Below are positions 4,198-60,572 of a stretch of DNA of 64,000 nucleotides, piece by piece. The position numbers and the translations under genes are program-made. The DNA comes from Gammaproteobacteria bacterium (GTDB lineage: Bacteria > Pseudomonadota > Gammaproteobacteria > 21-64-14), in assembly GCA_027013145.1 (NCBI GenBank), contig JALUXX010000016.1, positions 22,983 to 86,982 on the forward strand, given 5' to 3'. The notes beneath the pieces are model-generated. The model was not told the DNA's origin, did no database searches, and worked only from the letters and a program-made list of their open reading frames with translations. Within the stretch, counting starts at the first letter, position 1, and each line of letters begins with the position of its first letter.

Positions 4198-4255
4198 GTG
4201 CTGCAGGACGGCCCTGACCGGTTCCGAACCGATTCCCCTTTAGGAGACGATCATC

Positions 4256-4600
4256 ATGCCAAGCACATTCGAGATGGGTGACTACCAGACTGCGCATACG
4301 CTGGAGACCTTCGGGTTTCTGCCGTCGATGTCGCAGGACGAGATTCATCAGCAGATCGCGTACATCATCGCCCAGGGGTGGACGCCGGCCATCGAGCACG
4401 AGCACCCCTCCCAGGCAGACAGCGACTACTGGACGATGTGGAAGCTGCCGTTCTTCGGTGAGACCAATCTGGGCAACGTCGTAAGCGAGCTCGAGGCCTG
4501 TCACCGGGCGTATCCGGATCACCACATCCGGCTGATCGGCTACGACAACTACACCCAGTCGCAGGGCCTGTCGTTCGTCGTCTTCGAAGGTCGCAACTGA
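4256..4600 (+). CDS. cbbS: RuBisCO small subunit
   Basis: 114 aa with the conserved small-subunit pattern (ETFGFLP, QIAYIIAQGW, MWKLPFFG). Immediately downstream of cbbL. Confidence 0.95.
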   Translation: MPSTFEMGDYQTAHTLETFGFLPSMSQDEIHQQIAYIIAQGWTPAIEHEHPSQADSDYWTMWKLPFFGETNLGNVVSELEACHRAYPDHHIRLIGYDNYTQSQGLSFVVFEGRN

Positions 4601-4641
4601 AACGGCGGGGAACGCGCATCATCGACACGGTGGGGTGAGCC

Positions 4642-6975: not shown

Positions 6976-7005
6976 GGCGGCTGAGCGACGGGTAGAGGCG
7001 AAGCG

Positions 7006-11575: not shown

Positions 11576-13258
11576 ATGAAGGCGCTGGTCGTCGCCGTGG
11601 CGGCGGTGCCGTTCGCATCCGCGCTGCTGGTTCAGTTGTTCGGCGCGCGCCTGAGGCGGGGGGCGGCCCGCGTCAGTGTGGGCGCCGTTGCGCTTACCTT
11701 CGTCCTCGCCGCGGCAACGCTCGCCCTGGCGTTGGACGGTCACGCGCCCGCGCAATTCGCGCTGGCACGTCAGTGGGGGATACTTCTCTTCGACCCCCTG
11801 AGCACCTTGATGGCCGTGGTGATATCGGGAATCAGCCTCGTCGTCCATGTCTACTCGGTCCGCTATATGGCCGAAGAGCCCGGCTATGCGCGCTTCTTCG
11901 TCCTGTTGGACCTCATGACGGGCACGCTGCTGGTGATGGTGGCGGCCGGCGATCTGATCACGCTGCTGGCCGCTTGGCACCTGATCGGTGTGCTCCTCTA
12001 TTTCCTGCTCGGACACGATGCCCGCAGCCGCGCGGCCCACCGCTACGCGTCGTGGACCCTGATCACCTACCGGCTTGGCGATTTGCCGCTGGTGCTCGCG
12101 GCCGGCCTGCTCTATCACGCGTACGGAACGTGGTCGTTGCCGAAGATCTTCGCCGCGATCGGCACCGATCCGCGCGCCCACGCCGTTCTGGGCGTACCGT
12201 TGCCGGAGGTCGTGGCGGCCCTCGTCGCGCTCGCCGCGTTCGCGCGTTCCGCCCAGTTCCTCCTCCATACCTGGCTCCCCTACACGATGTCGGGCCCGAC
12301 CCCGGTTTCGGCCCTGATGCATGCGGGGATCGTGAATGCGGGGGGGTTCCTGATCAACCGGTTCGCACCCGTGTTCGTTCACACGGCCGACGTACTGCCC
12401 GGCGTCTTCATCGTCGGGTTGATCACCGCGCTGATCGGGTCGAGCCTCATGCTGACCCAGAACGACATCAAAAAGTCGCTGGGCTACTCCACCATGGGGC
12501 AGATGGGCTTCATGATCATGGAGTGCGGCGTGGGCGCCTTCGCGCTGGCCATCTTTCATCTGATATCACACGGTCTGTTCAAGGGGACCTTGTTTCTGGG
12601 TGCGGGAGGGGTCATCCATTCGGCCCGCGAAGACGACGGGGTGCCCAAAGACGATCTCTACACCTTCGTCGTCGAGAAGCGCCCGGCCAATCAACGCCGA
12701 CCCTGGATCCTGATGGCGGCGATCACTCTCGCCGTTCCGGTGGTGATCCTGATGGCGGCGCACTTCCTCGTGTCCCAGGATTATTTCCAGGAGCAGGGCG
12801 CGATCGTGCTCCTGTTTTTCGGCTGGATCACGGGAGCGCAGTTGATATTCGCGACCTACCGCATGCGCGCGCAGAACTTCTGGCGGCTGGTGGTGCTGAG
12901 CGTCTTCTCGTTTGCGATCGTGATCGTCGGCTATACGCTGATCAGCCACGCCTTCGATCTCTTCCTGTATCCGGACGCGTCGTTCCGGCGCGGACTGTTC
13001 GCCGCGGCCGATATCGGTGCCGTGAGATTCGACGCCCTGGTCGGCCTCGTGACCGTTTCCATCGTCGCCGGCTGGGTGTTCACCTACTACTCCGAGCAGG
13101 GGAGGGGGCGGCGCCGGGAGGTCCGGGCGGGGCGTTGGTGGTCGACCCTGTACGCCCTCGGCTCCCGGGAATTTTTTTTGACCGACTTGTATACGCGCCT
13201 GGCGCGGGCGCTCGAGGCTGCGGCTACACGGCTCAACGTATGGTTGAGGTGGGTCTGA
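11576..13258 (+). CDS. dabB: DabB, the NuoL/MrpA-like proton-pumping membrane subunit of a DAB inorganic-carbon accumulation complex
   Basis: 560 aa with ~14 TM helices and complex I antiporter-like motifs (WHLIGVLLYFLLGH, THAGIVNAGGFL, LISHGLFKGTLFLGAG). Followed by a DUF2309 (DabA) gene. Confidence 0.75.
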   Translation: MKALVVAVAAVPFASALLVQLFGARLRRGAARVSVGAVALTFVLAAATLALALDGHAPAQFALARQWGILLFDPLSTLMAVVISGISLVVHVYSVRYMAEEPGYARFFVLLDLMTGTLLVMVAAGDLITLLAAWHLIGVLLYFLLGHDARSRAAHRYASWTLITYRLGDLPLVLAAGLLYHAYGTWSLPKIFAAIGTDPRAHAVLGVPLPEVVAALVALAAFARSAQFLLHTWLPYTMSGPTPVSALMHAGIVNAGGFLINRFAPVFVHTADVLPGVFIVGLITALIGSSLMLTQNDIKKSLGYSTMGQMGFMIMECGVGAFALAIFHLISHGLFKGTLFLGAGGVIHSAREDDGVPKDDLYTFVVEKRPANQRRPWILMAAITLAVPVVILMAAHFLVSQDYFQEQGAIVLLFFGWITGAQLIFATYRMRAQNFWRLVVLSVFSFAIVIVGYTLISHAFDLFLYPDASFRRGLFAAADIGAVRFDALVGLVTVSIVAGWVFTYYSEQGRGRRREVRAGRWWSTLYALGSREFFLTDLYTRLARALEAAATRLNVWLRWV

Positions 13259-13259
13259 T

Positions 13260-14024
13260 ATGGGTACGCCGGGTCTTTGGAGCGTCGCGATCTTTCTGCC
13301 GCTCTTTCCGCTGAGCGTGATCTTCAATGCGCTGTTCGCCCGGGTCGGCAATGCGCCGATGCGGGCGATTATCCTGCTCGCATGGCCGCAGGTCGGACTC
13401 GTCCTGTTCGGAATTTTGCCGCCCGGGCGGGTAGCCGGGGGGGTGGTCGCGTTGGCGGTGCTGGGGTCGCTCCTCTACGCGTTCCGCGCGATCGCGCTGC
13501 GGGATGTGGACCGCTGGACCGGCTACATCGCGACTTCCGCATGGGCGCTGTTGTGGCCGGCTCTCGCACATCACGCAGCGATCGACACCCTGCGGCTCTA
13601 CGCGTTGGGTTTCAGCGTTCCACTGGCGCTGTTGGTACTGGTGGCCGACGCACTGAAGCGGCGCTTCGGGGCCGCGTACGCCGGACTCTATGGCGGAACC
13701 GTGCGGATGCTTCCGAGGCTGGCCGGCGCGACGGCGCTGGTGGTGCTGGCGGCGGTCGCGGTGCCGTTGTTTCCGGGCTTCTTCGCGCTGGTGGCGGTCA
13801 TGGTTACGACGATTCCGGAGCAGCCGTGGCTCGCGGTGTGCGTCGGGCTCACGTGGCTGCTTTGGACCTGGGGCGGAATCCGGCTGCTGCAGGGATTGAT
13901 CGTGGGTCCGGGTGAGGCGGTTGCGCCGGTCGCGGATCTGAGTCGCGTCGAGTTCGGATTCTACGTCCTGACGCTCGCCCTGCTGATTGCCGGTGCGTTG
14001 CGGCTGCCGGGGGTGACGGCATGA
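13260..14024 (+). CDS. Hypothetical polytopic membrane protein encoded between dabB and dabA
   Basis: 254 aa with ~7 predicted TM segments and high GC3. Translationally coupled: it starts 2 nt after the dabB stop and overlaps the dabA start by 4 nt. No motif I can assign. Confidence 0.5.
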   Translation: MGTPGLWSVAIFLPLFPLSVIFNALFARVGNAPMRAIILLAWPQVGLVLFGILPPGRVAGGVVALAVLGSLLYAFRAIALRDVDRWTGYIATSAWALLWPALAHHAAIDTLRLYALGFSVPLALLVLVADALKRRFGAAYAGLYGGTVRMLPRLAGATALVVLAAVAVPLFPGFFALVAVMVTTIPEQPWLAVCVGLTWLLWTWGGIRLLQGLIVGPGEAVAPVADLSRVEFGFYVLTLALLIAGALRLPGVTA

Positions 14025-17000
14025 GTCTGAGGCTCGGGCAGACGCTGAAGATCCGCGCCATGGCCTACGTCGCGGGCGAGCCGATCCCGTTCTTCTGGCC
14101 GATGCGTTCCTTCATTCATCACAATCCGCTCCATGGCCTCGAACACCATCCGTTTCCGGAGGCGGTGGCGCGCGGTGAGCGGCTCTTTCAGGCCCGCGGC
14201 TTCCTTCCGCGGAGCGGATATCAACGGTATCTGCGCCTCGGCAAGGTCGACCGGGCGGCGCTCGGCGCCGGGGTGGAGGCCTTCCTGGCGCAACGGGAGG
14301 CGGTGGCGGGGATCGATCTTCCCAAGTGGATTCTTGCGCTGATGACGCGCATGGATCGGCCGGTCGTCGCGGGGAGCGGACTCGCCCGTGAGGCCGACGT
14401 CGTGGTCGCCCTGCGGGGCGGTCCCATCCGCGGGACGGTTCCGGGAGCGGATCATGTGCGCGCGCGTCTGCGCGAGGAGCTGCTGGATTCGCGCCCGGTC
14501 TACGAGGCGGTCGACCTCCTGTTCGGTACCGGGGTCGGCGCGGAACTGGACGAACTGGTGATCAAAAGCTGCCTCGATTTCTTCGACGAGGGTCAGTCGG
14601 TGTGGTCGATGCCGGGGCGCGAGCGGGGATTTTTCGCCGCCTGGCGGGAGATTGCGCGGCGCAGCGGGCGTCTGTACCTGCGCGGACTCCACATCGGGCG
14701 CATCCTGCGCGACGAGGAGGGCCCGGAGGCGGTGATCGTACGCGTCATGGAGACGCTCGGCGTGGGCGAGGGGCGGTGGACGACCTACTTCACCCGCGAG
14801 CTGGCGCGTCTTCACGGCTGGGCCGGCTTCATCCGGTGGCGGTCGGGCGCAAGGCACTATTACTGGGCGCAGCGCTATCCGGCCGATCTCGTGGATTTCC
14901 TCGCTGTGCGACTGGCGCTCGGGCTCGCGCTGCTCGGCGAGCGGGCCCGGACCGGGCCCACGACGGAGCCGGAACTGGAGCGGTTCATCGAGGACCGGTG
15001 GCGCGAGGCGTATCTGCGTCACGAGCTGTTTTCCGGGGCGGTGCTGCCGGCGATGGCGGCCCGGGTGGAACGTACCCTCGCGGCCGGACGGCCCGCACGG
15101 ATCGAGCGGCTCTACGAGGAGTATGTTGCCGCGAAGCGGGCCGAGGAGGCACGCGATCAGGCCGAGCGTCTTCAGGTTCTTGCCGCAATGAGTGATGGGC
15201 AGGAGGCGCTCTCGCGCTTGTCCGCCGAAGACCTGGGGCGCCTAGTCGGGATCCTGAGAGACTTCGAGCGCGGCGAAGGGATGATCTGGTTGAACGCCAT
15301 GGAGAATCGCGCCGTCGAGCGCCTGCTCGGGGGCATCCGGCCCGGCGCCCCACCGGCCGACGGGAAGCGGCCGTTCGCCCAGGCGCTGTTTTGTATCGAC
15401 ACGCGGTCGGAGCGCATCCGGCGTCACCTTGAGGGCGTCGGGGACTACGAGACCTACGGCATCGCGGGATTTTTCGGCGTTCCCGTCAGTTTCATGGAGC
15501 TGGGCAAAGGCAGCGAAGTGCATCTCTGCCCGGTTCTGCTCACGCCGAAGAACCTGGTAATGGAAATCGCGGTCGCCCAAGGCAACGACGACGTTACGGC
15601 GCTCACCGTGTTGGAGAAGGCTTTCCACGAACTGAAGGAATCGGTCCTGAGTCCGTTCGTGACCGTCGAGGCGATCGGCCTGCTCTTCGGTTTCGATATG
15701 GTAGGCAAGACCCTGCTGCCCGAGCGCTACAACCGCTGGCGCAAGCGGTTGCACCAGCGCAAGCCGCGCACCCATCTGCTGCTGGACAAGCTCAGCCGCG
15801 AGCAGGCCGATTCCGTTATCCGCGCGGTGCAGCGCGCCGTGATTGCGAAGGCGATTGCGCAGGAGTTCGGCCTGGAGGCCGAGCAGATCCACGATGCCGT
15901 GGTTCGCGAGCTGCGCGAGGTCGCGATGGGGCATGCCCAGGGGGCCCCGAAGCTGGCGGCGATGCTGGGGCTGGACGCTACGTCCGAACAGGCGTTCATC
16001 GGCCGGCTGCGGACCGTATACCGCATCAATCCATCCGTGGTGCGGCTCCAGATGGAGCGACTGGGTCGGCTCGGCTTCAGCCTCGACGAGCAGGTGGTCT
16101 TCGTCGCCCAGGCCCTCAAGGCCATCGGTCTGACGGAGAACTTCTCGCGATTCGTGTTGCTGGTAGGGCACGGCAGTACGTCGGAGAACAATCCCTACGA
16201 GTCCGCGCTCGACTGCGGCGCCTGCGGCGGGAATCAGGGACTGGTGAACGCCAGGGTCCTCGCCCAGATGGCGAACAAGCCGGCCGTGCGGCGTAGGCTG
16301 CGCGAGCAGGGGATCGATATTCCGGAGGACACTTGGTTCTTCCCGGCGCTGCACGATACCACGACCGACGAGTTGCGGCTGTTCGACCTCGACCGGGTGC
16401 CCGCCTCCCATGTCGTGTACATGGATCGGCTGCGCAAAGGGTTGCTCGCCGCATCCAGACTGTGCACGCAGGAGCGGATGCCGACGCTGCTGCCGTCGCC
16501 CGCCTCCCTCTCTCCGGCGGCCGCGTCGCGATATGCGGCACGCAACGCGCTCGATTGGTCCCAGGTGCGCCCGGAATGGGGGCTTGCGGGCAACGCATAC
16601 TTCATCATCGGCCGTCGTGCGTTGACGCAATCGTTCGCGCTCGAGGGGCGCGCGTTTCTGCATTCCTACGACTACCGTATCGATCCGAAGCGGCGGCTGC
16701 TGGAGACCATCCTGACCGGGCCCCTGGTGGTCGGCCAGTGGATCAACATGGAGCATTATTTTTCCACCGTGGACAATGAACGCTTCGGCAGCGGCAGCAA
16801 GGCCTACCACAACGTGGCCGGCCGCTTCGGGGTGATGACCGGGAATCTGAGCGATCTGCGCACCGGGCTCCCGGCTCAGACGGTGCTCGATCGCGGGTTC
16901 CCGTATCACGAGCCGCTGCGACTGATTACGGTGATCGAGGCCCCGTTCGATCACGCTTGGCGCGCCGTGGAGGAGGTATCCGTGGTCAAGTATCTCGTGC

Positions 17001-17137
17001 GAAACGGCTGGATTCGCCTGTTGATCGTGGATCCGGAGCGCCATTGCGTCGACGTGTACGAGGACGCGGCCTGGAGCCGGCGGCCGTTCCCGGGGACCGT
17101 TCAGTCGCAGCCGGCCGAGGAGTCCGTGCCATCATGA
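14021..17137 (+). CDS. dabA: DabA (DUF2309), the beta-carbonic-anhydrase-like catalytic subunit of the DAB inorganic-carbon pump
   Basis: 1038 aa, the size and composition of DabA/DUF2309. Contains a C-x-D-x-R-type motif (FCIDTRSERIRRHLE) and a later His/Cys motif resembling beta-CA zinc ligands. Paired with a NuoL-like gene. Confidence 0.75.
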   Translation: MSLRLGQTLKIRAMAYVAGEPIPFFWPMRSFIHHNPLHGLEHHPFPEAVARGERLFQARGFLPRSGYQRYLRLGKVDRAALGAGVEAFLAQREAVAGIDLPKWILALMTRMDRPVVAGSGLAREADVVVALRGGPIRGTVPGADHVRARLREELLDSRPVYEAVDLLFGTGVGAELDELVIKSCLDFFDEGQSVWSMPGRERGFFAAWREIARRSGRLYLRGLHIGRILRDEEGPEAVIVRVMETLGVGEGRWTTYFTRELARLHGWAGFIRWRSGARHYYWAQRYPADLVDFLAVRLALGLALLGERARTGPTTEPELERFIEDRWREAYLRHELFSGAVLPAMAARVERTLAAGRPARIERLYEEYVAAKRAEEARDQAERLQVLAAMSDGQEALSRLSAEDLGRLVGILRDFERGEGMIWLNAMENRAVERLLGGIRPGAPPADGKRPFAQALFCIDTRSERIRRHLEGVGDYETYGIAGFFGVPVSFMELGKGSEVHLCPVLLTPKNLVMEIAVAQGNDDVTALTVLEKAFHELKESVLSPFVTVEAIGLLFGFDMVGKTLLPERYNRWRKRLHQRKPRTHLLLDKLSREQADSVIRAVQRAVIAKAIAQEFGLEAEQIHDAVVRELREVAMGHAQGAPKLAAMLGLDATSEQAFIGRLRTVYRINPSVVRLQMERLGRLGFSLDEQVVFVAQALKAIGLTENFSRFVLLVGHGSTSENNPYESALDCGACGGNQGLVNARVLAQMANKPAVRRRLREQGIDIPEDTWFFPALHDTTTDELRLFDLDRVPASHVVYMDRLRKGLLAASRLCTQERMPTLLPSPASLSPAAASRYAARNALDWSQVRPEWGLAGNAYFIIGRRALTQSFALEGRAFLHSYDYRIDPKRRLLETILTGPLVVGQWINMEHYFSTVDNERFGSGSKAYHNVAGRFGVMTGNLSDLRTGLPAQTVLDRGFPYHEPLRLITVIEAPFDHAWRAVEEVSVVKYLVRNGWIRLLIVDPERHCVDVYEDAAWSRRPFPGTVQSQPAEESVPS

Positions 17138-30268: not shown

Positions 30269-31140
30269 ATACCCCCGGTGCGCGCCTGCGCCAGGCCCTC
30301 GAGATCGAGCGCCCGCTGCAGATCGTCGGCGTGCCCAACGCCTACTGCGCCCGGCTCGCCGCGCGTGCCGGTTTCCGCGCCGTCTATCTCTCCGGGGCCG
30401 GCGTCGCCAACGCCGCCTTCGGCCGGCCCGATCTTGGGCTGACGACGCGCGCCGAGGTGGTGGAGGAGGCGCGGCGCATCGCCGCGGTCTCGTCGTTGCC
30501 ACTGTTGGTCGACGTCGACACCGGCTGGGGGGACGAGATCGGGGCGTGCGTGCGCGAGCTCGAGGACGCCGGCGCCGCCGGGTTGCACGTCGAAGATCAG
30601 GTCGAGGCCAAACGCTGCGGGCACCGCCCCGGAAAACAACTGGTCGGTCCCGAGGAGATGTTCGTGCGCCTGGAAGCGGCGTTGGCGGCACGGCGCGATC
30701 CGGCCTTCGTGATCATGGCACGCACCGATGCCGCCGGGGTGGAGGGACTGGATGCGGCGATCGCGCGCGCGCGCGCCTACGTCGCCGCCGGGGCGGACAT
30801 GGTCTTCGCCGAGGCCTTGTCCTCGCTGGAGGAGTACCGCCGCTTCGTCGCGGCCGTGGCGGTGCCGGTGCTCGCCAACCTGACCGAGTTCGGGCGCACG
30901 CCGCTGTTCGATCGCGACGAGATCGCGCCCACCGGCGTGCGCATGCTGCTCTACCCGTTGAGCGCGTTCCGGGCGATGAGCGCGGCCGCCGAGGGTGTGT
31001 ACACGGCGATCCGCCGCGAGGGGAGCCAGCGGAGCTGGCTGGCACGGATGCAGACGCGCGCGGCGCTCTACGAGGTCCTCGATTACGACGCCGCCGAGCG
31101 CGCCCAACGCGCCGGGCCCGACGGGGAGCCGGAGGTGTGA
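30265..31140 (+). CDS. prpB: 2-Methylisocitrate lyase
   Basis: PEP mutase/isocitrate lyase superfamily with the KRCGH catalytic motif (EDQVEAKRCGHRPGKQLV) and DTGWG. Confidence 0.8.
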   Translation: MNTPGARLRQALEIERPLQIVGVPNAYCARLAARAGFRAVYLSGAGVANAAFGRPDLGLTTRAEVVEEARRIAAVSSLPLLVDVDTGWGDEIGACVRELEDAGAAGLHVEDQVEAKRCGHRPGKQLVGPEEMFVRLEAALAARRDPAFVIMARTDAAGVEGLDAAIARARAYVAAGADMVFAEALSSLEEYRRFVAAVAVPVLANLTEFGRTPLFDRDEIAPTGVRMLLYPLSAFRAMSAAAEGVYTAIRREGSQRSWLARMQTRAALYEVLDYDAAERAQRAGPDGEPEV

Positions 31141-32252
31141 GCGCCGGCGCCGGTCTCGCGGGCGTGGTCGCGGGCGAGACCGCGATCAGCACGGTGGAGG
31201 CCGACGGCCGCGGCCTGCGCTATCGCGGCTACGCCATTGAGGACCTGGCGGCGCACGCGCGCTTCGAGGAGGTTGCCTTCCTGCTGCTCTACGGTGAGCT
31301 GCCCGACCGGCGGGCACTGGCGGACTTCGAGGCGCGGACGGCGCGCCTGCGTGCGCCACCGGCCGCGGTCACGGCGATCCTCGACGCGCTGCCCGGGGGC
31401 GTCCACCCGATGGACGCGTTGCGCAGCGCCGTCTCCGTCCTCGGGGCCGTGGAGCCGGAGCGCGGCTTCGAGGGCCAGGAGGCGGTGGCCGAGCGCCTGC
31501 TCGCCGTGCTCCCGGCGTTGCTGCTGCACTGGTATACGCGTATCGATACCGGCATCGCGCCCCGGTCCGCGGCGGACGGCGCCGGGCTGGCCGAGGCCTT
31601 CCTGCGGATGCTGCACGGGCGAACGCCGCCGCCGACGCACCGGCGTGCGCTCGAAGTCTCGCTGATCCTCTACGCCGAGCACGAGTTCAACGCCTCGACC
31701 TTCGCCGCGCGCGTGACGGCCTCGACACGCGCCGACTTGCACTCCTGCATCACCACGGCGATCGGCACGCTCCGCGGACCGCTGCACGGAGGCGCGAACG
31801 AGGCCGCGATGGCGTTTCTGGACCCGCTCGCGGATCCCGACGCCGCCGAGGCCGCGGTGCTCGACGCATTGCGCGCGCACCGGCGGGTCATGGGCTTCGG
31901 CCACCGTGTCTACCGCGGGGAGGACCCGCGCAGCGCGCTGATCAAACCGTGGAGCCGCCGCCTGGCGGCAGAGGCGCGCGACGAGCGGCTGTTCGCCGTC
32001 TCCGAACGCGTGGAGGCGGTGATGCGGCGCGAGAAGGGGTTGTTTCCGAATCTCGACTTCTACAGCGCCTCGCTCTACCGGTTCCTGGGGATCCCGACGG
32101 CGCTCTACACCCCGCTGTTCGCGTGCGCGCGCATGGCGGGTTGGGCCGCGCACGTGATCGAGCAGCGGCGCGTCGGCCGCCTGATCCGCCCGCTCGCCCG
32201 CTACACGGGCCCGGCGCCGCGACCCTATGTCCCGCTGGAGGCGCGCGGGTGA
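31137..32252 (+). CDS. prpC: 2-Methylcitrate synthase
   Basis: Citrate-synthase family (GFGHRVYRGEDPRSA, LFPNLDFYSASLY). GTG start overlapping the prpB stop. Confidence 0.8.
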   Translation: MSAGAGLAGVVAGETAISTVEADGRGLRYRGYAIEDLAAHARFEEVAFLLLYGELPDRRALADFEARTARLRAPPAAVTAILDALPGGVHPMDALRSAVSVLGAVEPERGFEGQEAVAERLLAVLPALLLHWYTRIDTGIAPRSAADGAGLAEAFLRMLHGRTPPPTHRRALEVSLILYAEHEFNASTFAARVTASTRADLHSCITTAIGTLRGPLHGGANEAAMAFLDPLADPDAAEAAVLDALRAHRRVMGFGHRVYRGEDPRSALIKPWSRRLAAEARDERLFAVSERVEAVMRREKGLFPNLDFYSASLYRFLGIPTALYTPLFACARMAGWAAHVIEQRRVGRLIRPLARYTGPAPRPYVPLEARG

Positions 32253-33664
32253 GCCGTGTCCCGGACGAAGCCGATGCGCTCCTGAGCGAACTCGCCGCCT
32301 ACGCCTGCGACTACGAGCCGCGCGATGCGGAGGCGTTCGCCACCGCGCGCGAGTGCCTGTTCGACAGCCTCGCCTGCGCGCTGCTCGCCGGCGCCGATCC
32401 CGACTGCCGGCGCGTGCTCGCCGCGCCGGCCGAGGGGTTCGAGGTGCGCGATGGTCTCCGGCCCCCGGGGGCTACGCGCGCGCTCGATCCGGTCGCTGCG
32501 GCCTTCGACCTCGGCACCCGCATCCGCTGGCTCGACTTCAATGATACGTGGCTCGCGGCCGAATGGGGCCATCCCTCCGACAACCTCGGCGGGCTCCTCG
32601 CCGCGGCGCTGCTCGCGGCGCGTCGCGGCCCCGCCCCGAGCGTGCGCGACCTGCTCGGCGCGATGATCAAGGCCTACGAGATCCAGGGCGGCCTCGCCCT
32701 CGGCAACGCCCTCAACGAGGCCGGTCTCGATCACGTCGTGTTCGTGCGCGTCGCCACCGCACTCGCGGCGGGCGCGCTGCTCGGCGCCGAGCGCGCGCAA
32801 TTGCTCGCCGCCGCCGCGCACGCCTGGGTCGACGGCGGCCCCTTGCGCGTCTACCGCCACGCGCCGGACGCCGGCCCGCGCAAGGGCTGGGCGGCGGGCG
32901 ACGCGACCGCGCGCGGCTTGTGGCTGGCGCTGCTCGCCCTGCGCGGGGAGCCGGGCTGTCCGCACGCACTGAGCACGCCGGTGTGGGGATTCCGCGACGC
33001 GCTGCTGCGCGGGCGCGAGCCGGTCCTCGCGCGCCCGCTCGGCGAGTACGTCATGCCCAACGTCCTGTTCAAAGTAGCCTTCCCCGCCGAGTTCCACGGC
33101 CAGACCGCCGTCGAGGCGGCGCTGCGCCTGCACCCGCGGGTGCAGGGACGCTGGGAGGCGATCGAGAGCATCCGCATCGAGACCCAGCGCCCGGCGCTGC
33201 GCATCATCCACAAGCCCGGCCCGCTGCGCAATCCGGCCGATCGAGACCATTCCATCGACTACATGGTGGCGGTGGCGTTGCTGCGCGGCGCACTGGAGAG
33301 CGCCGACTACGGCGACGCGGGCGCCGCCGATCCGCGCATCGACGCCCTGCGCGCGCGCATGGAGGTGGTCGAGAACCCGGAGTTCACCCGTGCCTACTAC
33401 GACCCCGCGCGGCGCGCGATCCCCAACGCCATGAGGATCCGCTTCGCCGACGGCACCGCCACCGAGCGCGTCGCGATCGACTACCCGCTCGGCCACCGCC
33501 GCCGCCGCGCCGAGGCGCGCCCGCTGCTGCGGGAGAAATTCCGCTCCGCCGCCGAGCCCGCCCTCGGCCGCGAGCGCTGCACCCGCCTCCTCGCGCTCCT
33601 CGACGACCCGGCCCTCGACACCCTCCCCATCACAACCTTCGCCGACCAATTTCGGGGACAGTGA
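32249..33664 (+). CDS. prpD: 2-Methylcitrate dehydratase (MmgE/PrpD family)
   Basis: MmgE/PrpD family length and pattern. GTG start overlapping the prpC stop. Its last 7 codons lie inside the first copy of a 19-bp tandem repeat. Confidence 0.75.
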   Translation: MSRVPDEADALLSELAAYACDYEPRDAEAFATARECLFDSLACALLAGADPDCRRVLAAPAEGFEVRDGLRPPGATRALDPVAAAFDLGTRIRWLDFNDTWLAAEWGHPSDNLGGLLAAALLAARRGPAPSVRDLLGAMIKAYEIQGGLALGNALNEAGLDHVVFVRVATALAAGALLGAERAQLLAAAAHAWVDGGPLRVYRHAPDAGPRKGWAAGDATARGLWLALLALRGEPGCPHALSTPVWGFRDALLRGREPVLARPLGEYVMPNVLFKVAFPAEFHGQTAVEAALRLHPRVQGRWEAIESIRIETQRPALRIIHKPGPLRNPADRDHSIDYMVAVALLRGALESADYGDAGAADPRIDALRARMEVVENPEFTRAYYDPARRAIPNAMRIRFADGTATERVAIDYPLGHRRRRAEARPLLREKFRSAAEPALGRERCTRLLALLDDPALDTLPITTFADQFRGQ

Positions 33665-33710
33665 GAATTTCGCGACCAATTTCGGGGACAGCGACCAATT
33701 TCGGGGACAG
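33643..33710. repeat. Three copies of the 19-bp unit CGACCAATTTCGGGGACAG: one at 33643-33661 overlapping the prpD stop, then two exactly tandem at 33673-33691 and 33692-33710
   Basis: Read directly. Copies 2 and 3 are perfect and abut. Copy 1 is separated by 11 nt. The last copy runs into the left boundary element. Confidence 0.85.
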
Positions 33711-33841
33711 TGTACTTAATTGTTGGCGATCGTCTGTTGCGCGGTTGCAGCAGTTCGTGGGCCGGGGCCCCGTTGAACGGACGTTGACGCCGGCGCGATC
33801 CTGCGAGCGGACGAGCCTCTCAAATAAGTAAACTGTCCCCG
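33700..33841. repeat. ~142-bp element with inverted-repeat termini (5' TTCGGGGACAGTGTAC ... AGTAAACTGTCCCCG 3'), left copy
   Basis: The termini CGGGGACAG and CTGTCCCCG are reverse complements. A second, ~70% similar copy with identical termini lies at about 60348-60484 in the same orientation. Confidence 0.6.
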
Positions 33842-33954
33842 CATTTCAATACTGAAATTATTTCGGATCCGTACCCGCGCGGGTCTGTGTTCCCGGCTGC
33901 GGCTTCCGTTCAAACTCTCGTAAATTCAAACAGAAAAGTTCTTTATCCCGGAGT

Positions 33955-33970
33955 TGGCACGTTCGTTGCG
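33955..33970 (+). promoter_or_regulatory. Sigma-54 (RpoN) promoter, -24/-12 elements TGGCAC-N5-TTGCG
   Basis: Perfect match to TGGCAC-N5-TTGC(A/T) with correct GG/GC spacing, ~110 nt upstream of the CDS starting at 34078. A sigma-54 activator is encoded 10 kb downstream. Confidence 0.55.
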
Positions 33971-34077
33971 AACGAAACGCGTGCCGGCGGCCGGCGTGGC
34001 CGCGCGGGTCCGGCCGGACAGAGCGGACAGAGCTTAGACGCGGACTAGGGCTTCGACAGCGATTTCGCGAGGAGACG

Positions 34078-35514
34078 ATGATGGAGACTTGTTCCCGAGG
34101 ACACCGAAGGGGCGTTGCCCGACTCGGCCGGGTCGTGCCGCGGGCGAAAGGCGTCGGCGTAGCGCTCGCCGGCGGCCTGCTGCTTCTGGGCGGGGTAGGA
34201 AACGCCGCGGCCCGCTCCTGGGAGTTGAACGGGCCGGCGTGGCACCTCCCGACACCCGCGCATTCGCGCGCGATGGGGGTGCCCGGGCGGGCGCCCGCGA
34301 GTGGGTTCGCCGGAAGCTGGCAGAACGTGGATCGCAATACGCGCGGTCTCACGCGCGTGGATATCGTGCGCGCCGGTGCGGGTTACCGAGTCCGGGCCTG
34401 GGGCCGCTGTCACCCCCGTGACTGCGACTGGGGGAGCGCACCGGCGCAGATCTACGCCCCGTCGCCGTCGGCACGGCGCGACGTGGCGCTCACGGCGCAG
34501 TTCCGCGAGCCGAGCGGAACGATGACCCTGGTGCTCCATAACCGCGGGAGCCGGCTGAGCGCGGAGGTGTTTCGGGCGTTCGATCCGGCGCACGCCTCCG
34601 GGCGCCGCAATTATCTGATGACCGCGCAACTGACCCGTTCGGCCACCCGGCCGAGCGTCGGCATGGGCGGCGCCGCTCCATCGGGGTCCGCGGGTACGAG
34701 GCCACCGGCCGGCGGGCGTCCCGCCGGCGCGCAGGCGCGCTTCCGGGTCATCGTCACCGGTTTCACCGTGAACCAGCAGACCTGGGACGACGCCCTTAAC
34801 CATGACGGAAAAGGAGACGAGGTGTTCCTGCTCACGCACGTGGCCGAGCTGAGCTCATCCGGGAAGGAGGTGCTCGCCTCGGATGTCCGCTCACGCGTGA
34901 TGGGCGATACCAACGGCTGGAAGGGAAGGGTGCACGCGGGGACGGCATGGACGGGTATCTTCGGCGGTCCGCGCGGCGGGCTGGCGACGGGGGATCAGTA
35001 TCCCAGCACGCGCCCCTGGCAGGTGCGGGGACGGGTCTTCGAAGACCGTGCGCCGGAACTCGTGTGGCAGGGAACACTCCGGAGGGGGGACGGCGGCGTG
35101 CTGATCGTACCGACCATCTGGGAATGGGACGAGGCCGGCGGAGATGCGATCGTCCGCGACTGGGCGGCGCTGGTGCAGAAGCTGGACAAGGCCGCGGGGC
35201 CTCTGATCAACGCCGCCAGCGGCGGGGAGGCGAAGCCGTTCGTCGACGCGGCCGGCGCCACATGGGGCGTGCTGCGCAGCAACGAGTTGGCCAGGGTGCT
35301 CGGGCACGCCGCCACCCGTCCCATCGGCCTGCGCGAGGCGGGCAAGGGTCGTCAGGTGTTCCGGCCGACGATCATCCGGCTCAACTACGACATCGCCGAG
35401 CGCCTGCTGCGCAGCAACTTCGGCAAGGGGCCCGGTGTGCTGGAGGTCCAGTATCAGGATTCCTCGCGCCTGCGCGGGGACTACACGCTGTACGTGAAGG
35501 TGCAGCGCATGTGA
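34078..35514 (+). CDS. Hypothetical secreted protein (478 aa)
   Basis: GAGGAG RBS. N-terminal signal-like hydrophobic segment. High GC3. No recognisable domain. Confidence 0.55.
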   Translation: MMETCSRGHRRGVARLGRVVPRAKGVGVALAGGLLLLGGVGNAAARSWELNGPAWHLPTPAHSRAMGVPGRAPASGFAGSWQNVDRNTRGLTRVDIVRAGAGYRVRAWGRCHPRDCDWGSAPAQIYAPSPSARRDVALTAQFREPSGTMTLVLHNRGSRLSAEVFRAFDPAHASGRRNYLMTAQLTRSATRPSVGMGGAAPSGSAGTRPPAGGRPAGAQARFRVIVTGFTVNQQTWDDALNHDGKGDEVFLLTHVAELSSSGKEVLASDVRSRVMGDTNGWKGRVHAGTAWTGIFGGPRGGLATGDQYPSTRPWQVRGRVFEDRAPELVWQGTLRRGDGGVLIVPTIWEWDEAGGDAIVRDWAALVQKLDKAAGPLINAASGGEAKPFVDAAGATWGVLRSNELARVLGHAATRPIGLREAGKGRQVFRPTIIRLNYDIAERLLRSNFGKGPGVLEVQYQDSSRLRGDYTLYVKVQRM

Positions 35515-57042: not shown

Positions 57043-59523
57043 GTGAACGTTGAAGACCGATCCGCACTTCCGCTTATGCCGATGCTTTTACTGTTCGCCT
57101 TGCTGGCGCTGCCGTCGATGGTCCAGGCTGCCGTCGGCCAATACTGGGAGTGGGAGAATCCGATCCCGCAGGGCAACACGCTGAATGCGGTTGCATGGAA
57201 CGGCAGTAATCTCTACGTGGCCGTCGGGGATCGCGGCACGGTGATGACCAGTCCCGATGCGGTTTCCTGGATGGCCTCCAACGTCGGAAACACGAATCGT
57301 CTCACGGCGGCGGCATGGGGGAACGGGAGATTCGTGGCCGCGGATGATATGGGCGGGATAGTTACCAGCCCGGACGGCGGGAATTGGACGCCCCGTACGT
57401 CGAACTCGAACTACTATGGGATCTCCGGTTTGGTGTGGAATGGAAGCGAATTCGTCGCGGTAGGCGGCGGTGGCGTCATCCTGACCAGTCCGGACGGAAT
57501 CACATGGACATCGATAGTCCCGGGGGCGGGTTCGGCGCACAACCTCAGCGCGGTTGGCTGGAACGGCATGCAGTTCGTCGCGGTAGGTCAGGCGGGTACC
57601 GTACGCACCAGCCCGGACGGCATCCACTGGACGACGCGGACCTCCGGCACGACGGCCGATCTCGCCGGTGTGGTCTGGGCCGGCGCGAAATGGGTGGCCG
57701 TAGGCGGAAACACGGTTCTGACCAGCGCCGACGGCATTACGTGGACAGCCCAGACCGGAGTCACGTCCAATTTTCTGTTGGCCGTGGGCTGCAAGAGCAG
57801 CGAATTGGTTGCGCTGGGCGGAAACGTCACCCTGACCAGCGCCGACGGCGTGAGCTGGACGCAACACAACAACGTCACCTATAGGTTGAACGCGCTCTTG
57901 TGGAACGGCAGCGAATTCGTCGCCGTCGGAGACGGCGGAAAGATCGCTGTCAGCACCGATGGCTCCGTATGGACGTCTCGGACGCAGAACGTGCTGGACG
58001 TGCCGGGGCGGTACGAACCCTCTGTCGGTGGCATCGGATGGTTCGCGGTCAAGGGCGAGTTCGTCGCCGTTACCAACCAGGGGTTGGTGTTGAGGAGCCG
58101 TGACGGATTGCATTGGTCGGTCACGGATACCGGGATCGGCAACAACCTCAGTGCCCTTGACTGTACGAGCACCGAGTGCGTGGCCGTCGGTGCCGGCGGT
58201 CACATCGCAACCAGCCTGGATGCCGCGACCTGGACGCCGCAGACTTCGGGTACGAGCAACACGCTTTATGATGTCGCCTGGGACGCGAAAAACGCTCAGT
58301 TCGTGGCCGTGGGGGCCAACGGGACGATTCTCACCAGCGCGGACGGTGCCGCCTGGGTAGCGCAGAGTTCCGGCACGACGCAGAATCTATTCGGCGTTCA
58401 TGCGGGAGGCGGCGGCATCGTGGCCGTGGGTGGGAACGGAACCATCCTCACCAGCGCGGACGGGACCGTATGGAACGCACGAACCTCCGGCGCCACGTCA
58501 CGTTTGAGTGCGATCACCTTTGGCGGCGGAAAGTACGTCGCGGTCACCCAGCTTACGGGTAAGGCGCTCATCAGTGCCGATGGGGTGACGTGGACGCCGT
58601 ACTCGCTTCCCTCGTTCGCCATCCTGGATACCGTGATATGGGACGGGAAGTATTTCTTCGCAGGAGGACCGCAGTCGCCGGTATTCGTCAGTTCGGACGG
58701 AATGAACTGGACCTCGTACGATACGGGCGCGGACCCCGCGCCGCTGGCGATAGCGACGAACGGAAACGCCAACGCGTCCATCGCTGTCATGGGCGGTTTC
58801 AGCGGCTCGATTCTGGCCTCTGTCCAGCCGGCGCCCACCGGATTGCAGGCCGTGACGGTGACGCAACCGGGTCCGGGTTCGGAAACGTTCAACATTCAGG
58901 GCATGAGTTCGTTGACGGTCGCCGCAAGTTCCGGCAACCAAACGCTGTTGCCGGACGCCGGCATTGCGGGCGCATCGACTTGCAGATCGGCCGGAAGCTG
59001 CACGCTTACATTGCATCCCGCGGCCGGGCGGACCGGCACCGCAGCGGTGACCGTGACCGTTACCGATGGCCATGGACAAAGCGGAAAAGGCACCTTCCAG
59101 GTAACGGTCGGGCCACCGCCGCCACCGAGCGCGAGCGGCTTTTCCAATATCACGATCGCGCAACCGAACGGCGGCAGCGAAAAGTTTGCGGTGACGGGAT
59201 CCGGTACGCTGACAGTAACGGTGCATTCTGGCAACCAGGGACTGTTGCCCGATGCCAATATTGGCGGCGCAGCGAGCTGCACGTCGGCCGGGAACTGCGT
59301 GCTGACGCTGCAGCCGGTTGCACAACAGGCCGGGACCGCCGCGGTGGGTGTGACGGTGAGTGACGCCTACGGGCAGAGTTCAGGCGGCACCTTCACGGTG
59401 TCGGTCAAGGCGGCGCCGTCTGCGGCCGGCGGTGGCGGCGGTGGCCTCGGGCCGTGGATGCTCTTGGGCCTGCTGGGGCTCCTGCCGTGGCGGCTGCGCC
59501 GCCGCGTGTCCCGGCGTGTCTGA
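57043..59523 (+). CDS. Secreted protein with 12 BNR/Asp-box repeats (two beta-propeller-like units), two Ig-like domains and a GlyGly-CTERM-like C-terminal sorting signal (826 aa)
   Basis: Signal peptide. Twelve S-x-D-G-x-x-W-T repeats (TSPDGGNWT, TSADGITWT, SSDGMNWT and similar), each with a (W/F)xGxxFVAVG strand. Two ~100-aa beta-sandwich-like repeats (VTVTDGHGQSGKGTFQVTV / VGVTVSDAYGQSSGGTFTVSV). C-terminus GGGGGGLGPWMLLGLLGLLPWRLRRRVSRRV: Gly-run, TM helix, Arg cluster. Confidence 0.65.
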   Translation: MNVEDRSALPLMPMLLLFALLALPSMVQAAVGQYWEWENPIPQGNTLNAVAWNGSNLYVAVGDRGTVMTSPDAVSWMASNVGNTNRLTAAAWGNGRFVAADDMGGIVTSPDGGNWTPRTSNSNYYGISGLVWNGSEFVAVGGGGVILTSPDGITWTSIVPGAGSAHNLSAVGWNGMQFVAVGQAGTVRTSPDGIHWTTRTSGTTADLAGVVWAGAKWVAVGGNTVLTSADGITWTAQTGVTSNFLLAVGCKSSELVALGGNVTLTSADGVSWTQHNNVTYRLNALLWNGSEFVAVGDGGKIAVSTDGSVWTSRTQNVLDVPGRYEPSVGGIGWFAVKGEFVAVTNQGLVLRSRDGLHWSVTDTGIGNNLSALDCTSTECVAVGAGGHIATSLDAATWTPQTSGTSNTLYDVAWDAKNAQFVAVGANGTILTSADGAAWVAQSSGTTQNLFGVHAGGGGIVAVGGNGTILTSADGTVWNARTSGATSRLSAITFGGGKYVAVTQLTGKALISADGVTWTPYSLPSFAILDTVIWDGKYFFAGGPQSPVFVSSDGMNWTSYDTGADPAPLAIATNGNANASIAVMGGFSGSILASVQPAPTGLQAVTVTQPGPGSETFNIQGMSSLTVAASSGNQTLLPDAGIAGASTCRSAGSCTLTLHPAAGRTGTAAVTVTVTDGHGQSGKGTFQVTVGPPPPPSASGFSNITIAQPNGGSEKFAVTGSGTLTVTVHSGNQGLLPDANIGGAASCTSAGNCVLTLQPVAQQAGTAAVGVTVSDAYGQSSGGTFTVSVKAAPSAAGGGGGGLGPWMLLGLLGLLPWRLRRRVSRRV

Positions 59524-60272: not shown

Positions 60273-60347
60273 GCTGCGGCGCCGGCGAAGACGAATGCGA
60301 CGTGTCCAGGACCACAGACGCTCAAGAGGTCCTCCATGACCGTTGAA

Positions 60348-60484
60348 TTCGGGGACAGTGTACCAATTTGGCCCTTGCCCGTTGTGCGGTTACGGTACCC
60401 CGTGGACCGCCGCTCTATCGGTGACCACTGGTGTCCGCGCGTCCCGCGACTGGATGGTGACCTGAAATTAGTAAACTGTCCCCG
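60348..60484. repeat. ~137-bp element with inverted-repeat termini (TTCGGGGACAGTGTAC ... AGTAAACTGTCCCCG), right copy, ending 11 nt from the tRNA-Arg 3' end
   Basis: Same termini and orientation as the element at 33700-33841. Internal similarity, for example GTTGTGCGGTTACGGTAC against GTTGCGCGGTTGCAGCAG. Confidence 0.6.
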
Positions 60485-60495
60485 AAAAGGGGGGG

Positions 60496-60572
60496 TGGCG
60501 CCCCGGCCAGGATTTGAACCTGGGACCTTCCCCTTAGGAGGGGGATGCTCTATCCAGCTGAGCTACCGGGGC
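60496..60572 (-). tRNA. tRNA-Arg (anticodon CCU), 77 nt, with genomically encoded CCA
   Basis: Minus-strand sequence GCCCCGGTAGCTCAGCTGGATAGAGCATCCCCCTCCTAAGGGGAAGGTCCCAGGTTCAAATCCTGGCCGGGGCGCCA. It has a 7-bp acceptor stem, D stem GCTC/GAGC, anticodon stem TCCCC/GGGGA with loop CTCCTAA (anticodon CCT), T stem CCAGG/CCTGG and GGTTCAAATCC T-loop. Confidence 0.9.

What the first reader, a model, noticed from the sequence alone, without database searches (positions are those of the whole stretch)
33643..33710. Three copies of a 19-bp unit (CGACCAATTTCGGGGACAG), the first supplying the last seven codons and the stop of prpD
prpD ends ...TFADQFRGQ*, encoded by GCCGACCAATTTCGGGGACAGTGA. The same 19-mer recurs 11 nt later and again immediately tandem. 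The third copy reads straight into the left boundary element (TTCGGGGACAGTGTAC).

So the prpD C-terminus has been rewritten by, or fused to, a repeat.

Spaced or tandem direct repeats next to an inverted-repeat core are what arm-type integrase binding sites, plasmid/ICE iterons or regulator-binding arrays look like.

A partial fourth unit (ACCAATTTGGCCC) sits just inside the right boundary element, at about 60362-60375.
Basis: seen in the sequence. Interest (0 to 1): 0.55.

Follow-up and report, generated by a model that had tools for sequence, protein, structure and literature searches.

The report
Stuttered end of a miniature transposon
The three 19-bp repeats are partial re-copies of the outer end of a small hairpin-forming mobile repeat, of a known family moved by IS200-type tyrosine transposases, that sits on the stop codon of prpD; the finding is largely ordinary, although this "stutter" proves to be a recurrent signature of the family.

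Summary
CGACCAATTTCGGGGACAG occurs exactly three times (33643, 33673, 33692; 0 expected), and an independent assembly shows the same structure.

It is not an integrase arm site, iteron or regulator array. The last 15 nt of the unit are the outer end ("head") of a 27-nt terminal inverted repeat (TIR), consensus GAAWTN-CGGGGACAGTTTACTTAATTC. Two ~150-bp inverted doublets of this TIR lie in the window (33696-33847 and 60344-60490), and both fold into long hairpins.

The same TIR was found in more than 120 metagenome contigs (37-70% GC). In at least 12 loci it flanks a ~220-aa Y1/HUH transposase related to REP-associated tyrosine transposases. This is the published TIRtron/TIRYT class, whose TIRs share GGGGWSAS (here GGGGACAG).

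PrpD's last codons and stop (RGQ*) are read from the TIR head. A 98%-identical relative has the same prpD-TIR junction with one head only (PrpD ends RGQYT*). The window lineage therefore gained 49 nt of partial heads locally.

Such head stutters are family-wide: 19 of 189 heads against 14 of 4800 random anchors, and 90 further stretches in named genomes. They share a start, end at variable points (often +9), and show almost no junction microhomology.

The likely cause, which is inferred, is transposase nicking or stalling at the TIR end followed by short resynthesis.

The parts
32249..33664 (+). prpD (2-methylcitrate dehydratase, 471 aa, GTG start). It is the last gene of prpB-prpC-prpD. The last three codons and the stop are read from the repeat head.
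   Evidence: Pfam MmgE_PrpD_N and MmgE_PrpD_C. 100% match to P0001/P0242. prpB-like at 30271-31134 and prpC-like at 31164-32252. C-terminal alignment.
33643..33661 (+). 19-mer copy 1. CGAC is native prpD; CAATTT-CGGGGACAG is TIR head positions -6 to +9. The head match continues to +11 (TG of the stop).
   Evidence: Family logo. The relative L214 has this copy only.
33662..33672 (+). 11-nt spacer TGAGAATTTCG. It holds the stop TGA and a mini-head GAATTT-CG (positions -6 to +2) whose 5' extension differs from the local one.
   Evidence: Absent from the relative L214. Mini-heads truncated at +2 or +3 are common in the family.
33673..33691 (+). 19-mer copy 2, a head truncated at +9. It is part of the 49-nt gain in this lineage.
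33692..33710 (+). 19-mer copy 3. Its last 15 nt are the start of the full-length left TIR of doublet A.
33696..33847 (.). TIR doublet A, a miniature non-coding element. Left TIR 33696-33722 (+), spacer, right TIR 33821-33847 (-).
   Evidence: Inverted repeat I14: 26-nt arms, 85% complementary. As single-stranded DNA it folds into a hairpin of -38.9 kcal/mol, z = -5.0. It aligns with doublet B.
60344..60490 (.). TIR doublet B, a second member of the same family in the same orientation. Left TIR 60344-60370 (+), right TIR 60464-60490 (-). It has no stutter.
   Evidence: Hairpin of -34.2 kcal/mol, z = -4.8.
60496..60572 (-). tRNA-Arg (CCT). Its 3' end lies 5 nt from doublet B. This is context only, not part of the element.
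   Evidence: ARAGORN. Rfam tRNA, 69.9 bits.

Best explanation
**What it is.** The 19-bp triplet is a 'head stutter' at the outer end of a miniature, non-coding transposon-like repeat. The repeat is a ~150-bp doublet of two inverted 27-nt TIRs (consensus GAAWTN-CGGGGACAGTTTACTTAATTC) that can fold into a long hairpin. It belongs to the TIR families that flank Y1 (HUH) tyrosine transposases of the RAYT/TIRYT type ('TIRtrons').

**What is shown.**
- One such doublet sits on the 3' end of prpD, so the gene reads its last codons and its stop from the TIR head.
- After that insertion, the window's lineage gained 49 nt made of partial heads.
- Two of these partial heads restart at the same point, 4 nt inside prpD-derived sequence, and stop at +9. 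One mini-head stops at +2.
- The original head is now cut off at +11, which creates the TGA stop.
- Truncated heads occur almost only directly upstream of a full head.

**What is inferred.**
- The transposase, or a replication block it causes, repeatedly opens or stalls DNA at the outer TIR boundary.
- The first 2-30 nt of the head are then re-synthesised from the 3'-OH, and the displaced 5' end is rejoined.
- Each cycle adds one truncated head outside the full one. Once a tandem exists, ordinary slippage can amplify it.
- The stutter has no demonstrated function. Its consequence here is a PrpD ending in RGQ* instead of RGQYT*.
For: **Identity of the repeat.**
These contigs span 37-70% GC and often carry inverted pairs.
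- The conserved block runs from -6 to +21.
- A ~220-aa ORF recurs next to the TIR. It matches Pfam Y1_Tnp at 45.8 bits against a cut-off of 23.
- Its best NCBIfam family is REP-associated tyrosine transposase, 74.7 bits against a cut-off of 80.
- Its only PDB relative is E. coli TnpA-REP, 4ER8.
- The order TIR(+)-gene-TIR(-), spanning 760-810 bp, is seen in at least 12 loci.
- Published TIRtron/TIRYT elements have TIRs sharing GGGGWSAS (PMC3733652; PMC6006769). GGGGACAG fits that motif.

**The stutter arose locally.**
- The relative L214 is 97.9% identical over 1989 nt. It has ...GCCGACCAATTTCGGGGACAGTATACTTAA... with one head, and its PrpD ends RGQYT*.
- The alignment shows a clean 49-nt insertion in the window.

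**The stutter is a family property.**
- 19 of 189 heads in loci not selected for stutter carry an exact partial copy upstream, against 14 of 4800 random anchors. The mirror test on the inner side gives only 4 of 189.
- 90 further stretches were found in named genomes.
- Units within one array share their start and differ in their end.
- Junction microhomology is 0-1 nt in 61 of 76 perfect duplications. The unit start peaks at -6/-7 and truncation peaks at +9.
- Truncated heads lie next to a full head 89 times. Only about 6-8 look like true solos, which is near chance.
- An inverted partner is not needed, and the rate is highest for TIRtron-like heads: 4/15, against 7/89 for doublets and 1/29 for heads without a partner.

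**Chemistry.** HUH enzymes leave a free 3'-OH and a 5'-phosphotyrosine link, and they can rejoin strands (PMC8266576).
Against: - No Y1 transposase gene lies in the 64-kb window, and only two doublets are present. Membership of this genome's copies therefore rests on sequence family, not on a linked gene.
- No doublet of the window's exact type was found in 185,579 representative genomes.
- The window's unit starts at -10/-11, which is 4 nt outside the usual -6/-7 start.
- The 11-nt spacer, with its foreign GAATTT mini-head, is not explained by a simple local cycle.
- Unit starts range from -4 to -16 across loci, which is looser than a single fixed cleavage site would give.
- Long arrays of mini-heads, such as the 12 units in L136, look like plain slippage.
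- No experiment links this transposase class to nick-primed synthesis. The +9 peak is partly imposed by the scan pattern.
Confidence: 0.8

Rival explanations
1. The stutter has the same identity (a TIR/REP-like element), but it arises without the transposase. Replication or repair synthesis stalls on entering the hairpin or cruciform (or a protein-bound TIR). The nascent end then re-primes a few nucleotides upstream, by template switching or slippage.
For: - The doublets fold into very stable hairpins.
- Arrays of very short units such as (GAAATCCGG)x12 look like slippage.
- The foreign GAATTT mini-head in the window's spacer suggests a switch to another template.
- Unit starts are not perfectly fixed.
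Against: - Junctions have essentially no microhomology: 0-1 nt in 61 of 76.
- Heads without an inverted partner stutter as often as doublets in the full set. Heads flanking transposase-sized units stutter most.
- The stutter is strictly on the outer side, with a shared start within each array.
Confidence: 0.3
2. One reading: the direct repeats are protein-binding sites (arm-type integrase sites, iterons or a regulator array) that mark the left end of a 26.8-kb island.
For: - Direct repeats lie next to an inverted-repeat core.
- Synteny with a close relative ends at this element.
- A tRNA gene lies next to the right element.
Against: - No integrase, recombinase, replication or transfer gene was found between the elements.
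- The identical kind of stutter occurs at about 100 unrelated loci in many taxa.
- The relative keeps the same junction with one copy.
- Units are truncated at variable points, which is unlike binding-site arrays.
- The relative's katG-like neighbour is not beyond the right element.
Confidence: 0.03
3. The partial heads are footprints of transposition. They would come from nested insertion of new elements into the head of an old one, from remnants left by imprecise excision, or from reciprocal strand exchange between two cleavage sites.
For: Truncation clusters at +9 and unit starts near -6, which could be two cleavage sites.
Against: - No GTAAA|TTTAC junctions were found, which nested insertion predicts.
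- Headless TIRs, the reciprocal product, are absent: 310 heads are intact, and 10 of the 11 exceptions are point variants.
- Solo truncated heads are near chance level.
- The window's unit contains 4 nt of prpD-derived flank, so it was copied in place.
Confidence: 0.04
4. The three copies are a chance repeat or an assembly artefact.
For: None.
Against: - 0 matches were expected by chance.
- Two independent assemblies give the same sequence.
- The same pattern occurs in many other genomes.
Confidence: 0.01

Closest known systems
TIRtrons / TIRYT-associated TIR repeat families (Di Nocera et al. 2013, PMC3733652; discussed by Quentin et al. 2018, PMC6006769)
   Same: - A RAYT-like Y1/HUH transposase gene is flanked by long terminal inverted repeats that share GGGGWSAS (here GGGGACAG).
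- The TIRs also occur dispersed as singles, dimers and clusters.
- Both features are seen for this motif.
   Different: - The window has only the non-coding doublets, with no transposase gene in 64 kb.
- The Y1 protein found next to this TIR shows no Pfam helix-turn-helix hit in its C-terminal part, unlike Quentin's subclass 2.1. Its subclass was not determined.
- The passages retrieved by term search in these two papers do not mention truncated-head stutters. The full texts were not read.
REPINs and RAYTs (Bertels & Rainey 2011, PMC3116915; Nunvar et al. 2010, PMC2817692)
   Same: - Two inverted short repeats with a spacer form a hairpin.
- They are non-autonomous and extragenic.
- They are associated with an IS200-like tyrosine transposase, whose only solved relative is E. 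coli TnpA-REP.
   Different: - The repeat unit is not itself a GTAG-tagged palindrome.
- The core is conserved across classes and phyla rather than being lineage-specific.
- The transposase unit looks IS-like. Two copies 95% identical lie on one contig, and many homologues sit on ~1-kb contigs.
REP/BIME clusters (E. coli, Pseudomonas)
   Same: [quoted passage not shown] That is the nearest published description of what is seen here.
   Different: Here the reiterated piece is usually a truncated outer part of the repeat (2-30 nt). The units share a start and lie on one side only.
IS200/IS605 family (IS608, ISDra2)
   Same: - The transposase has the Y1 HUH fold.
- The chemistry acts on single-stranded DNA.
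- No target-site duplication is made.
   Different: Those elements have subterminal hairpins and no TIRs. They insert 3' of a 4-5-nt target and leave no stutter.
MITEs (Correia/NEMIS, ERIC, RUP)
   Same: They are small, have TIRs, form hairpins, and often lie at gene ends where they alter C-termini or transcripts.
   Different: No direct target-site duplication is present here; the flanks are inverted, not direct. The partner enzyme is a tyrosine HUH transposase, not a DDE transposase.

Membership tests
TIRtron / TIRYT-associated TIR family | The TIR carries the shared motif GGGGWSAS. | tested here: met
   All four arms in the window read GGGGACAG. The motif is quoted in PMC3733652 and PMC6006769.
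TIRtron / TIRYT-associated TIR family | The same TIRs flank, in inverted orientation, a Y1/HUH transposase gene related to RAYTs. | tested here: met
   At least 12 related loci show TIR(+)-gene-TIR(-) over 760-810 bp. The protein matches Y1_Tnp, has REP_Tyr_transpos as best family and hits 4ER8. No such gene lies in the 64-kb window itself. Whether one exists elsewhere in this genome could not be tested.
TIRtron / TIRYT-associated TIR family | Copies are dispersed as singles, dimers and clusters. | tested here: met
   Two dimers in the window. Singles, dimers and clusters in metagenome and genome loci.
REPIN (RAYT-mobilised REP doublet) | Two inverted repeats with a spacer fold into a hairpin. 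| tested here: met
   -38.9 and -34.2 kcal/mol, z about -5.
REPIN (RAYT-mobilised REP doublet) | Each REP is a short palindrome tagged by GTAG. | tested here: not met
   The 27-nt unit has no GTAG tag. Pairing between the 5' extension and the inner AT-rich segment is weak: 230 Watson-Crick pairs against 184 expected at one position only, and p = 0.09 with one copy per locus.
REPIN (RAYT-mobilised REP doublet) | The transposase is single-copy and vertically inherited, and the REP is lineage-specific. | tested here: not met
   Two 95%-identical copies lie on one contig. The same core occurs in Gamma- and Alphaproteobacteria and in Campylobacterota, Planctomycetota and Verrucomicrobiota assemblies.
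MITE of a DDE insertion sequence | A direct target-site duplication flanks the TIRs. | tested here: not met
   The flanks of doublets are inverted copies of each other (for example GGAAATA|CGGGG...CCCCG|TATTTCC), not direct repeats. None is present at either window doublet.
Integrase att site with arm-type sites | An adjacent tyrosine or serine integrase gene, and a core site duplicated at both ends. | tested here: not met
   No integrase or recombinase domain in the ORFs between 33.8 and 60.3 kb. The 19-mer is absent from the right end.
Iterons of a plasmid or ICE origin | A linked replication-initiator gene and regularly spaced full-length repeats. | tested here: not met
   No replication-initiator gene. 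Units in the family are truncated at variable points and irregularly spaced.
Known structured RNA | A match to an Rfam family at its gathering score. | tested here: not met
   Only tRNA-Arg matched in 33000-61000.

The most novel reading that the evidence does not exclude
Head stutters may be in-genome records of TIRYT activity. The enzyme would nick at the outer TIR boundary, a short stretch would be re-synthesised up to the edge of the bound protein (about +9), and the 5'-linked strand would be resealed. If so, stutter boundaries map the cleavage site and protein footprint of an uncharacterised transposase class directly from sequence. They would also show that these enzymes act on chromosomal copies in situ, including at strain-level rearrangement breakpoints such as the one at prpD.
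Probability: 0.25. Interest if true: 0.55.

Novelty: new member of a known kind. Interest (0 to 1): 0.3.

Why it matters
**For this window.**
- It removes a false lead. The repeats do not mark an integrase-type island or a regulatory array.
- It explains why PrpD has an odd C-terminus.

**More generally.**
- A one-sided, microhomology-free stutter with a shared start, recurring in about 10% of heads across many taxa, is a cheap sequence signature. It could be used to infer where these enzymes cut.
- It could also be used to design experiments in cultured carriers such as Neptunomonas qingdaonensis or Thiocystis violacea.

**Strain comparison.** Homology between 98%-identical strains collapses exactly after the TIR head. 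This suggests that these elements are rearrangement breakpoints.

Tried and rejected
- **Look-up of PrpD with its V start (P0001):** not on record. The M-start twin P0242 worked.
- **Scan of representative genomes for the window's own doublet type** (GTGTAC left arm, 95-125-nt spacer): 0 hits.
- **Literature search for the motif as a string:** 0 papers.
- **Rfam over 33-61 kb:** only the tRNA.
- **Transposase in the window:** no tblastn match better than E = 0.03.
- **Small hairpin or guide pairing** between the 5' extension and the inner AT-rich part of a single TIR: weak. There is an excess of pairs at one position only, and p = 0.09 with one copy per locus. Not claimed.
- **Target-site duplication:** none. 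The flanks are inverted, not direct.
- **Nested self-insertion:** 0 predicted junctions.
- **Reciprocal exchange between two cut sites:** headless TIRs are absent.
- **Excision footprints:** solo truncated heads are at about chance level.
- **Simple island model:** the relative's katG-like neighbour is not found anywhere in the window, including beyond doublet B.
- **Plasmid carriage of the transposase:** only distant relatives (42% identity or less) on 9 plasmids.
- **Terminator scan of 33500-34200:** no intrinsic-terminator-like site.
Full report
**1. The observation**

The 19-mer CGACCAATTTCGGGGACAG occurs exactly three times, at 33643, 33673 and 33692. No further match exists even with three mismatches, and none was expected by chance. 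Tandem Repeats Finder reports the last two copies as a perfect period-19 array.

Copy 1 overlaps the end of a 471-aa MmgE/PrpD protein. That gene is the last of a prpB-prpC-prpD cluster. The reading frame is GC[C GAC CAA TTT CGG GGA CAG] TGA, giving ...F-A-D-Q-F-R-G-Q-stop.

An independent assembly of the same organism carries the identical structure. The repeat is therefore not an assembly artefact.

**2. What the unit is made of**

The last nine bases of the unit, CGGGGACAG, start a longer sequence, TTCGGGGACAGTGTAC. That sequence recurs at 60348 and, inverted, at 33828-33843 and 60471-60486.

The window thus holds two ~150-bp units, each bounded by inverted ends: 33696-33847 and 60344-60490. 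Both have the same orientation, and their mean column identity is 74% in an alignment that includes their flanks. Each folds as single-stranded DNA into a long hairpin (-38.9 and -34.2 kcal/mol, z about -5).

Between them I found:
- no integrase, transposase or replication gene;
- no Rfam family other than tRNA-Arg.

**3. The repeat belongs to a very widespread family**

I built a 21-nt degenerate pattern from the four arms in the window. The contigs range from 37% to 70% GC.

The conserved block runs from -6 to +21 relative to the C of CGGGG: GAAWTN-CGGGGACAGTTTACTTAATTC. Copies are often inverted pairs separated by 20-120 nt. Others are single or in direct tandem.

All-against-all comparison of ORFs in these loci found one protein family that recurs directly next to the motif. 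Its properties are:
- about 220 aa, with an HVH (HUH) motif and a conserved Tyr;
- a match to Pfam Y1_Tnp (45.8 bits, cut-off 23);
- NCBIfam 'REP-associated tyrosine transposase' as best family (74.7 bits, just under the cut-off of 80);
- E. coli TnpA-REP (4ER8) as its only solved relative.

In at least 12 loci the order is TIR(+)-gene-TIR(-) over 760-810 bp. The protein family is very large: 7999 proteins at E <= 1e-20. Many sit on contigs of about 1 kb, as expected for a multi-copy element that breaks assemblies.

**4. What is already known**

Di Nocera et al. (PMC3733652) described RAYT-like genes flanked by long terminal inverted repeats instead of REPs. They named the units 'TIRtrons' and the enzymes 'TIRYT'. 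They noted a shared TIR motif, GGGGWSAS, and moderately abundant TIR families organised as singles, dimers and clusters. Quentin et al. (PMC6006769) quote the same consensus.

GGGGACAG fits that motif. The window's two 'boundary elements' are therefore non-coding doublets of a TIRYT-type TIR family, functionally analogous to REPINs. No Y1 gene lies in the 64-kb window itself.

**5. PrpD's C-terminus**

In the alignment of homologues, the conserved pattern ends at P-[VI]-x-x-F-x-x-x-[FLW], followed by 1-5 variable residues. The nearest distinct relative (72% identity) ends ...PIADFIALFG*.

The window's protein ends ...PITTFADQF-RGQ*, and RGQ plus the stop are encoded by CGGGGACAGTGA, the TIR head. 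Of the 120 best homologues, only the window's own protein ends in RGQ.

The exact native/element boundary cannot be fixed. CAATTT (Q-F) matches both the native pattern and the TIR's 5' extension, and CAATTT is among the common extension hexamers. The boundary lies between 33646 and 33652.

**6. A natural control**

A PrpD variant (P0241, 473 aa) from another sample ends ...ADQFRGQYT*. Its contig (L214) is 97.9% identical to the window over 1989 nt, up to 33662.

It then reads GCCGACCAATTTCGGGGACAGTATACTTAA... That is one head only, running straight into a full TIR. The alignment shows a clean 49-nt insertion in the window, made of 11 + 19 + 19 nt.

Two conclusions follow:
- The element was already on the prpD stop codon in the common ancestor.
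- The extra units arose locally in the window's lineage, or less parsimoniously were lost in the relative.

Because the unit contains CGAC, which is not part of the TIR, it was copied in place rather than brought in by a new element.

The 31-mer that links prpD-specific sequence to TATAC in L214 argues against repeat collapse in that assembly. This last point is my reasoning, not a tool result.

**7. The stutter is a property of the family**

*Frequency.* In metagenome loci that were not selected for it, 19 of 189 heads carry an exact head-to-tail partial copy just upstream. The figure for random anchors is 14 of 4800, and the mirror test on the inner side gives 4 of 189.

*Breadth.* A scan of one genome per species for CGGGGACAG-N(4-14)-CGGGGACAGTTTAC returned 90 stretches. 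About 50 assemblies are represented among the 80 rows listed (my count), mostly Gamma- and Alphaproteobacteria:
- Halieaceae, Halioglobus, Neptunomonas qingdaonensis, Thiocystis violacea, Lamprocystis, Woeseia, Mesorhizobium and Hoeflea;
- also assemblies labelled Sulfurimonas, Planctomycetaceae and Verrucomicrobiaceae.

*Shape of the arrays.*
- Units within one array share their start and end at different points (+2 to +35). Fillers of 0-4 nt are frequent between units.
- Among 76 perfect duplications, junction microhomology is 0 or 1 nt in 61. Unit starts peak at -6/-7, and truncation peaks at +9 and +13. The +9 peak is partly imposed by the scan pattern.
- Truncated heads lie next to a full head 89 times; only about 6-8 are true solos.
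- Headless TIRs are absent, and so are nested-insertion junctions.

*Dependence on a partner.* An inverted partner is not required. In the unselected set the stutter rate is:
- 4/15 for heads flanking transposase-sized units;
- 7/89 for doublets;
- 1/29 for heads without a partner (small numbers).

**8. Mechanism (inferred)**

The features are: one-sided, coupled to a full head, shared start, variable end, and no microhomology. They fit best a process that starts repeatedly at the outer TIR boundary and aborts after a short stretch.

HUH enzymes cut single-stranded DNA, leaving a 3'-OH and a 5'-phosphotyrosine link, and they can rejoin strands. In related Rep proteins the 3'-OH primes synthesis (PMC8266576).

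I therefore favour this sequence of events:
- a nick at the boundary;
- short strand-displacement synthesis, perhaps halted by the protein bound over +10 to +21;
- resealing of the displaced 5' end.

Each cycle would add one truncated head. Slippage could then expand short units, as in the 12 units of L136.

The main rival is transposase-independent stalling and template switching at the hairpin. Some evidence favours that rival:
- the foreign GAATTT mini-head in the window's 11-nt spacer;
- the spread of unit starts (-4 to -16).

The lack of microhomology and the independence from a partner arm count against it. I cannot decide between the two from sequence alone.

**9. The 'island' question**

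Against L214, identity is 97.7% in the prpD 3' end and 96.4% in the head. It then drops to 67% in the spacer and 71% in the right arm, and the downstream flank is unrelated. The relative has a convergent katG-like gene there, and the window has none.

So a rearrangement breakpoint lies just after the TIR head. It is not shown that the 26.8 kb between the two doublets is one inserted unit.

**10. Verdict**

The idea that the C-terminus is rewritten by a repeat is right. The reading as integrase sites, iterons or a regulator array is wrong. The element is a new member of a known kind. The recurrent head stutter is a modestly interesting, and possibly undescribed, signature of that kind.

Noticed in passing
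window 33702-33850 compared with L214 1976-2150: Homology with a 98%-identical relative collapses just after the left TIR head: prpD 3' end 97.7%, head 96.4%, spacer 67%, right arm 71%, downstream flank unrelated. The relative has a convergent katG-like gene downstream that is absent from the window. TIR heads may be strain-level rearrangement breakpoints.
   Followed up: partly
window 60344-60572: TIR doublet B ends 5 nt from the 3' end of tRNA-Arg (CCT). The tRNA is intact (Rfam, 69.9 bits).
   Followed up: partly
window 2785-8514 and 11576-17137: An alpha-carboxysome and carbon-concentrating cluster is present: RuBisCO large subunit, CsoS2, the carboxysome carbonic anhydrase CsoSCA, and a DabA/DabB-type inorganic carbon transporter. 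The host is probably a high-GC chemolithoautotroph, and the nearest named PrpD relatives are gammaproteobacterial assemblies.
   Followed up: no
window 57043-59523: An 826-aa ORF is built of repeats of about 117-123 nt (direct-repeat families D1-D5). It has only weak DUF6242 and Cadherin_5 matches.
   Followed up: no
L139 1154-1263, L161 1547-1665, L008 4730-4870: Both arms of a doublet carry the same complex stutter or the same extra 28-nt extension. The arms must therefore have been copied from one another after the stutter arose, by inverted duplication or by arm-to-arm conversion.
   Followed up: no
L136 about 4130-4250; L010 about 5545-5700 (reverse-strand coordinates): Extreme arrays occur: 12 tandem GAAATCCG(G) mini-heads before one full head, and a dense cluster of full and partial heads.
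   Followed up: partly
L072 6642-7448, 9962-10768 and 12385-13263: Two TIRtron copies whose proteins are 95% identical lie 3.3 kb apart on one contig. A third, different RAYT-like gene (about 31% identity) has no motif nearby.
   Followed up: partly
proteins P0121-P0240: Many homologues of the Y1 transposase sit on contigs of 0.8-1.1 kb, the size of the TIRtron itself. This suggests high copy number that breaks assemblies. On plasmids only distant relatives (42% identity or less) were found.
   Followed up: partly
window 33665-33672: The 11-nt spacer contains a mini-head GAATTTCG. Its 5' extension (GAATTT) differs from the local CAATTT, as if copied from another TIR copy. This is not explained by a purely local duplication.
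   Followed up: no
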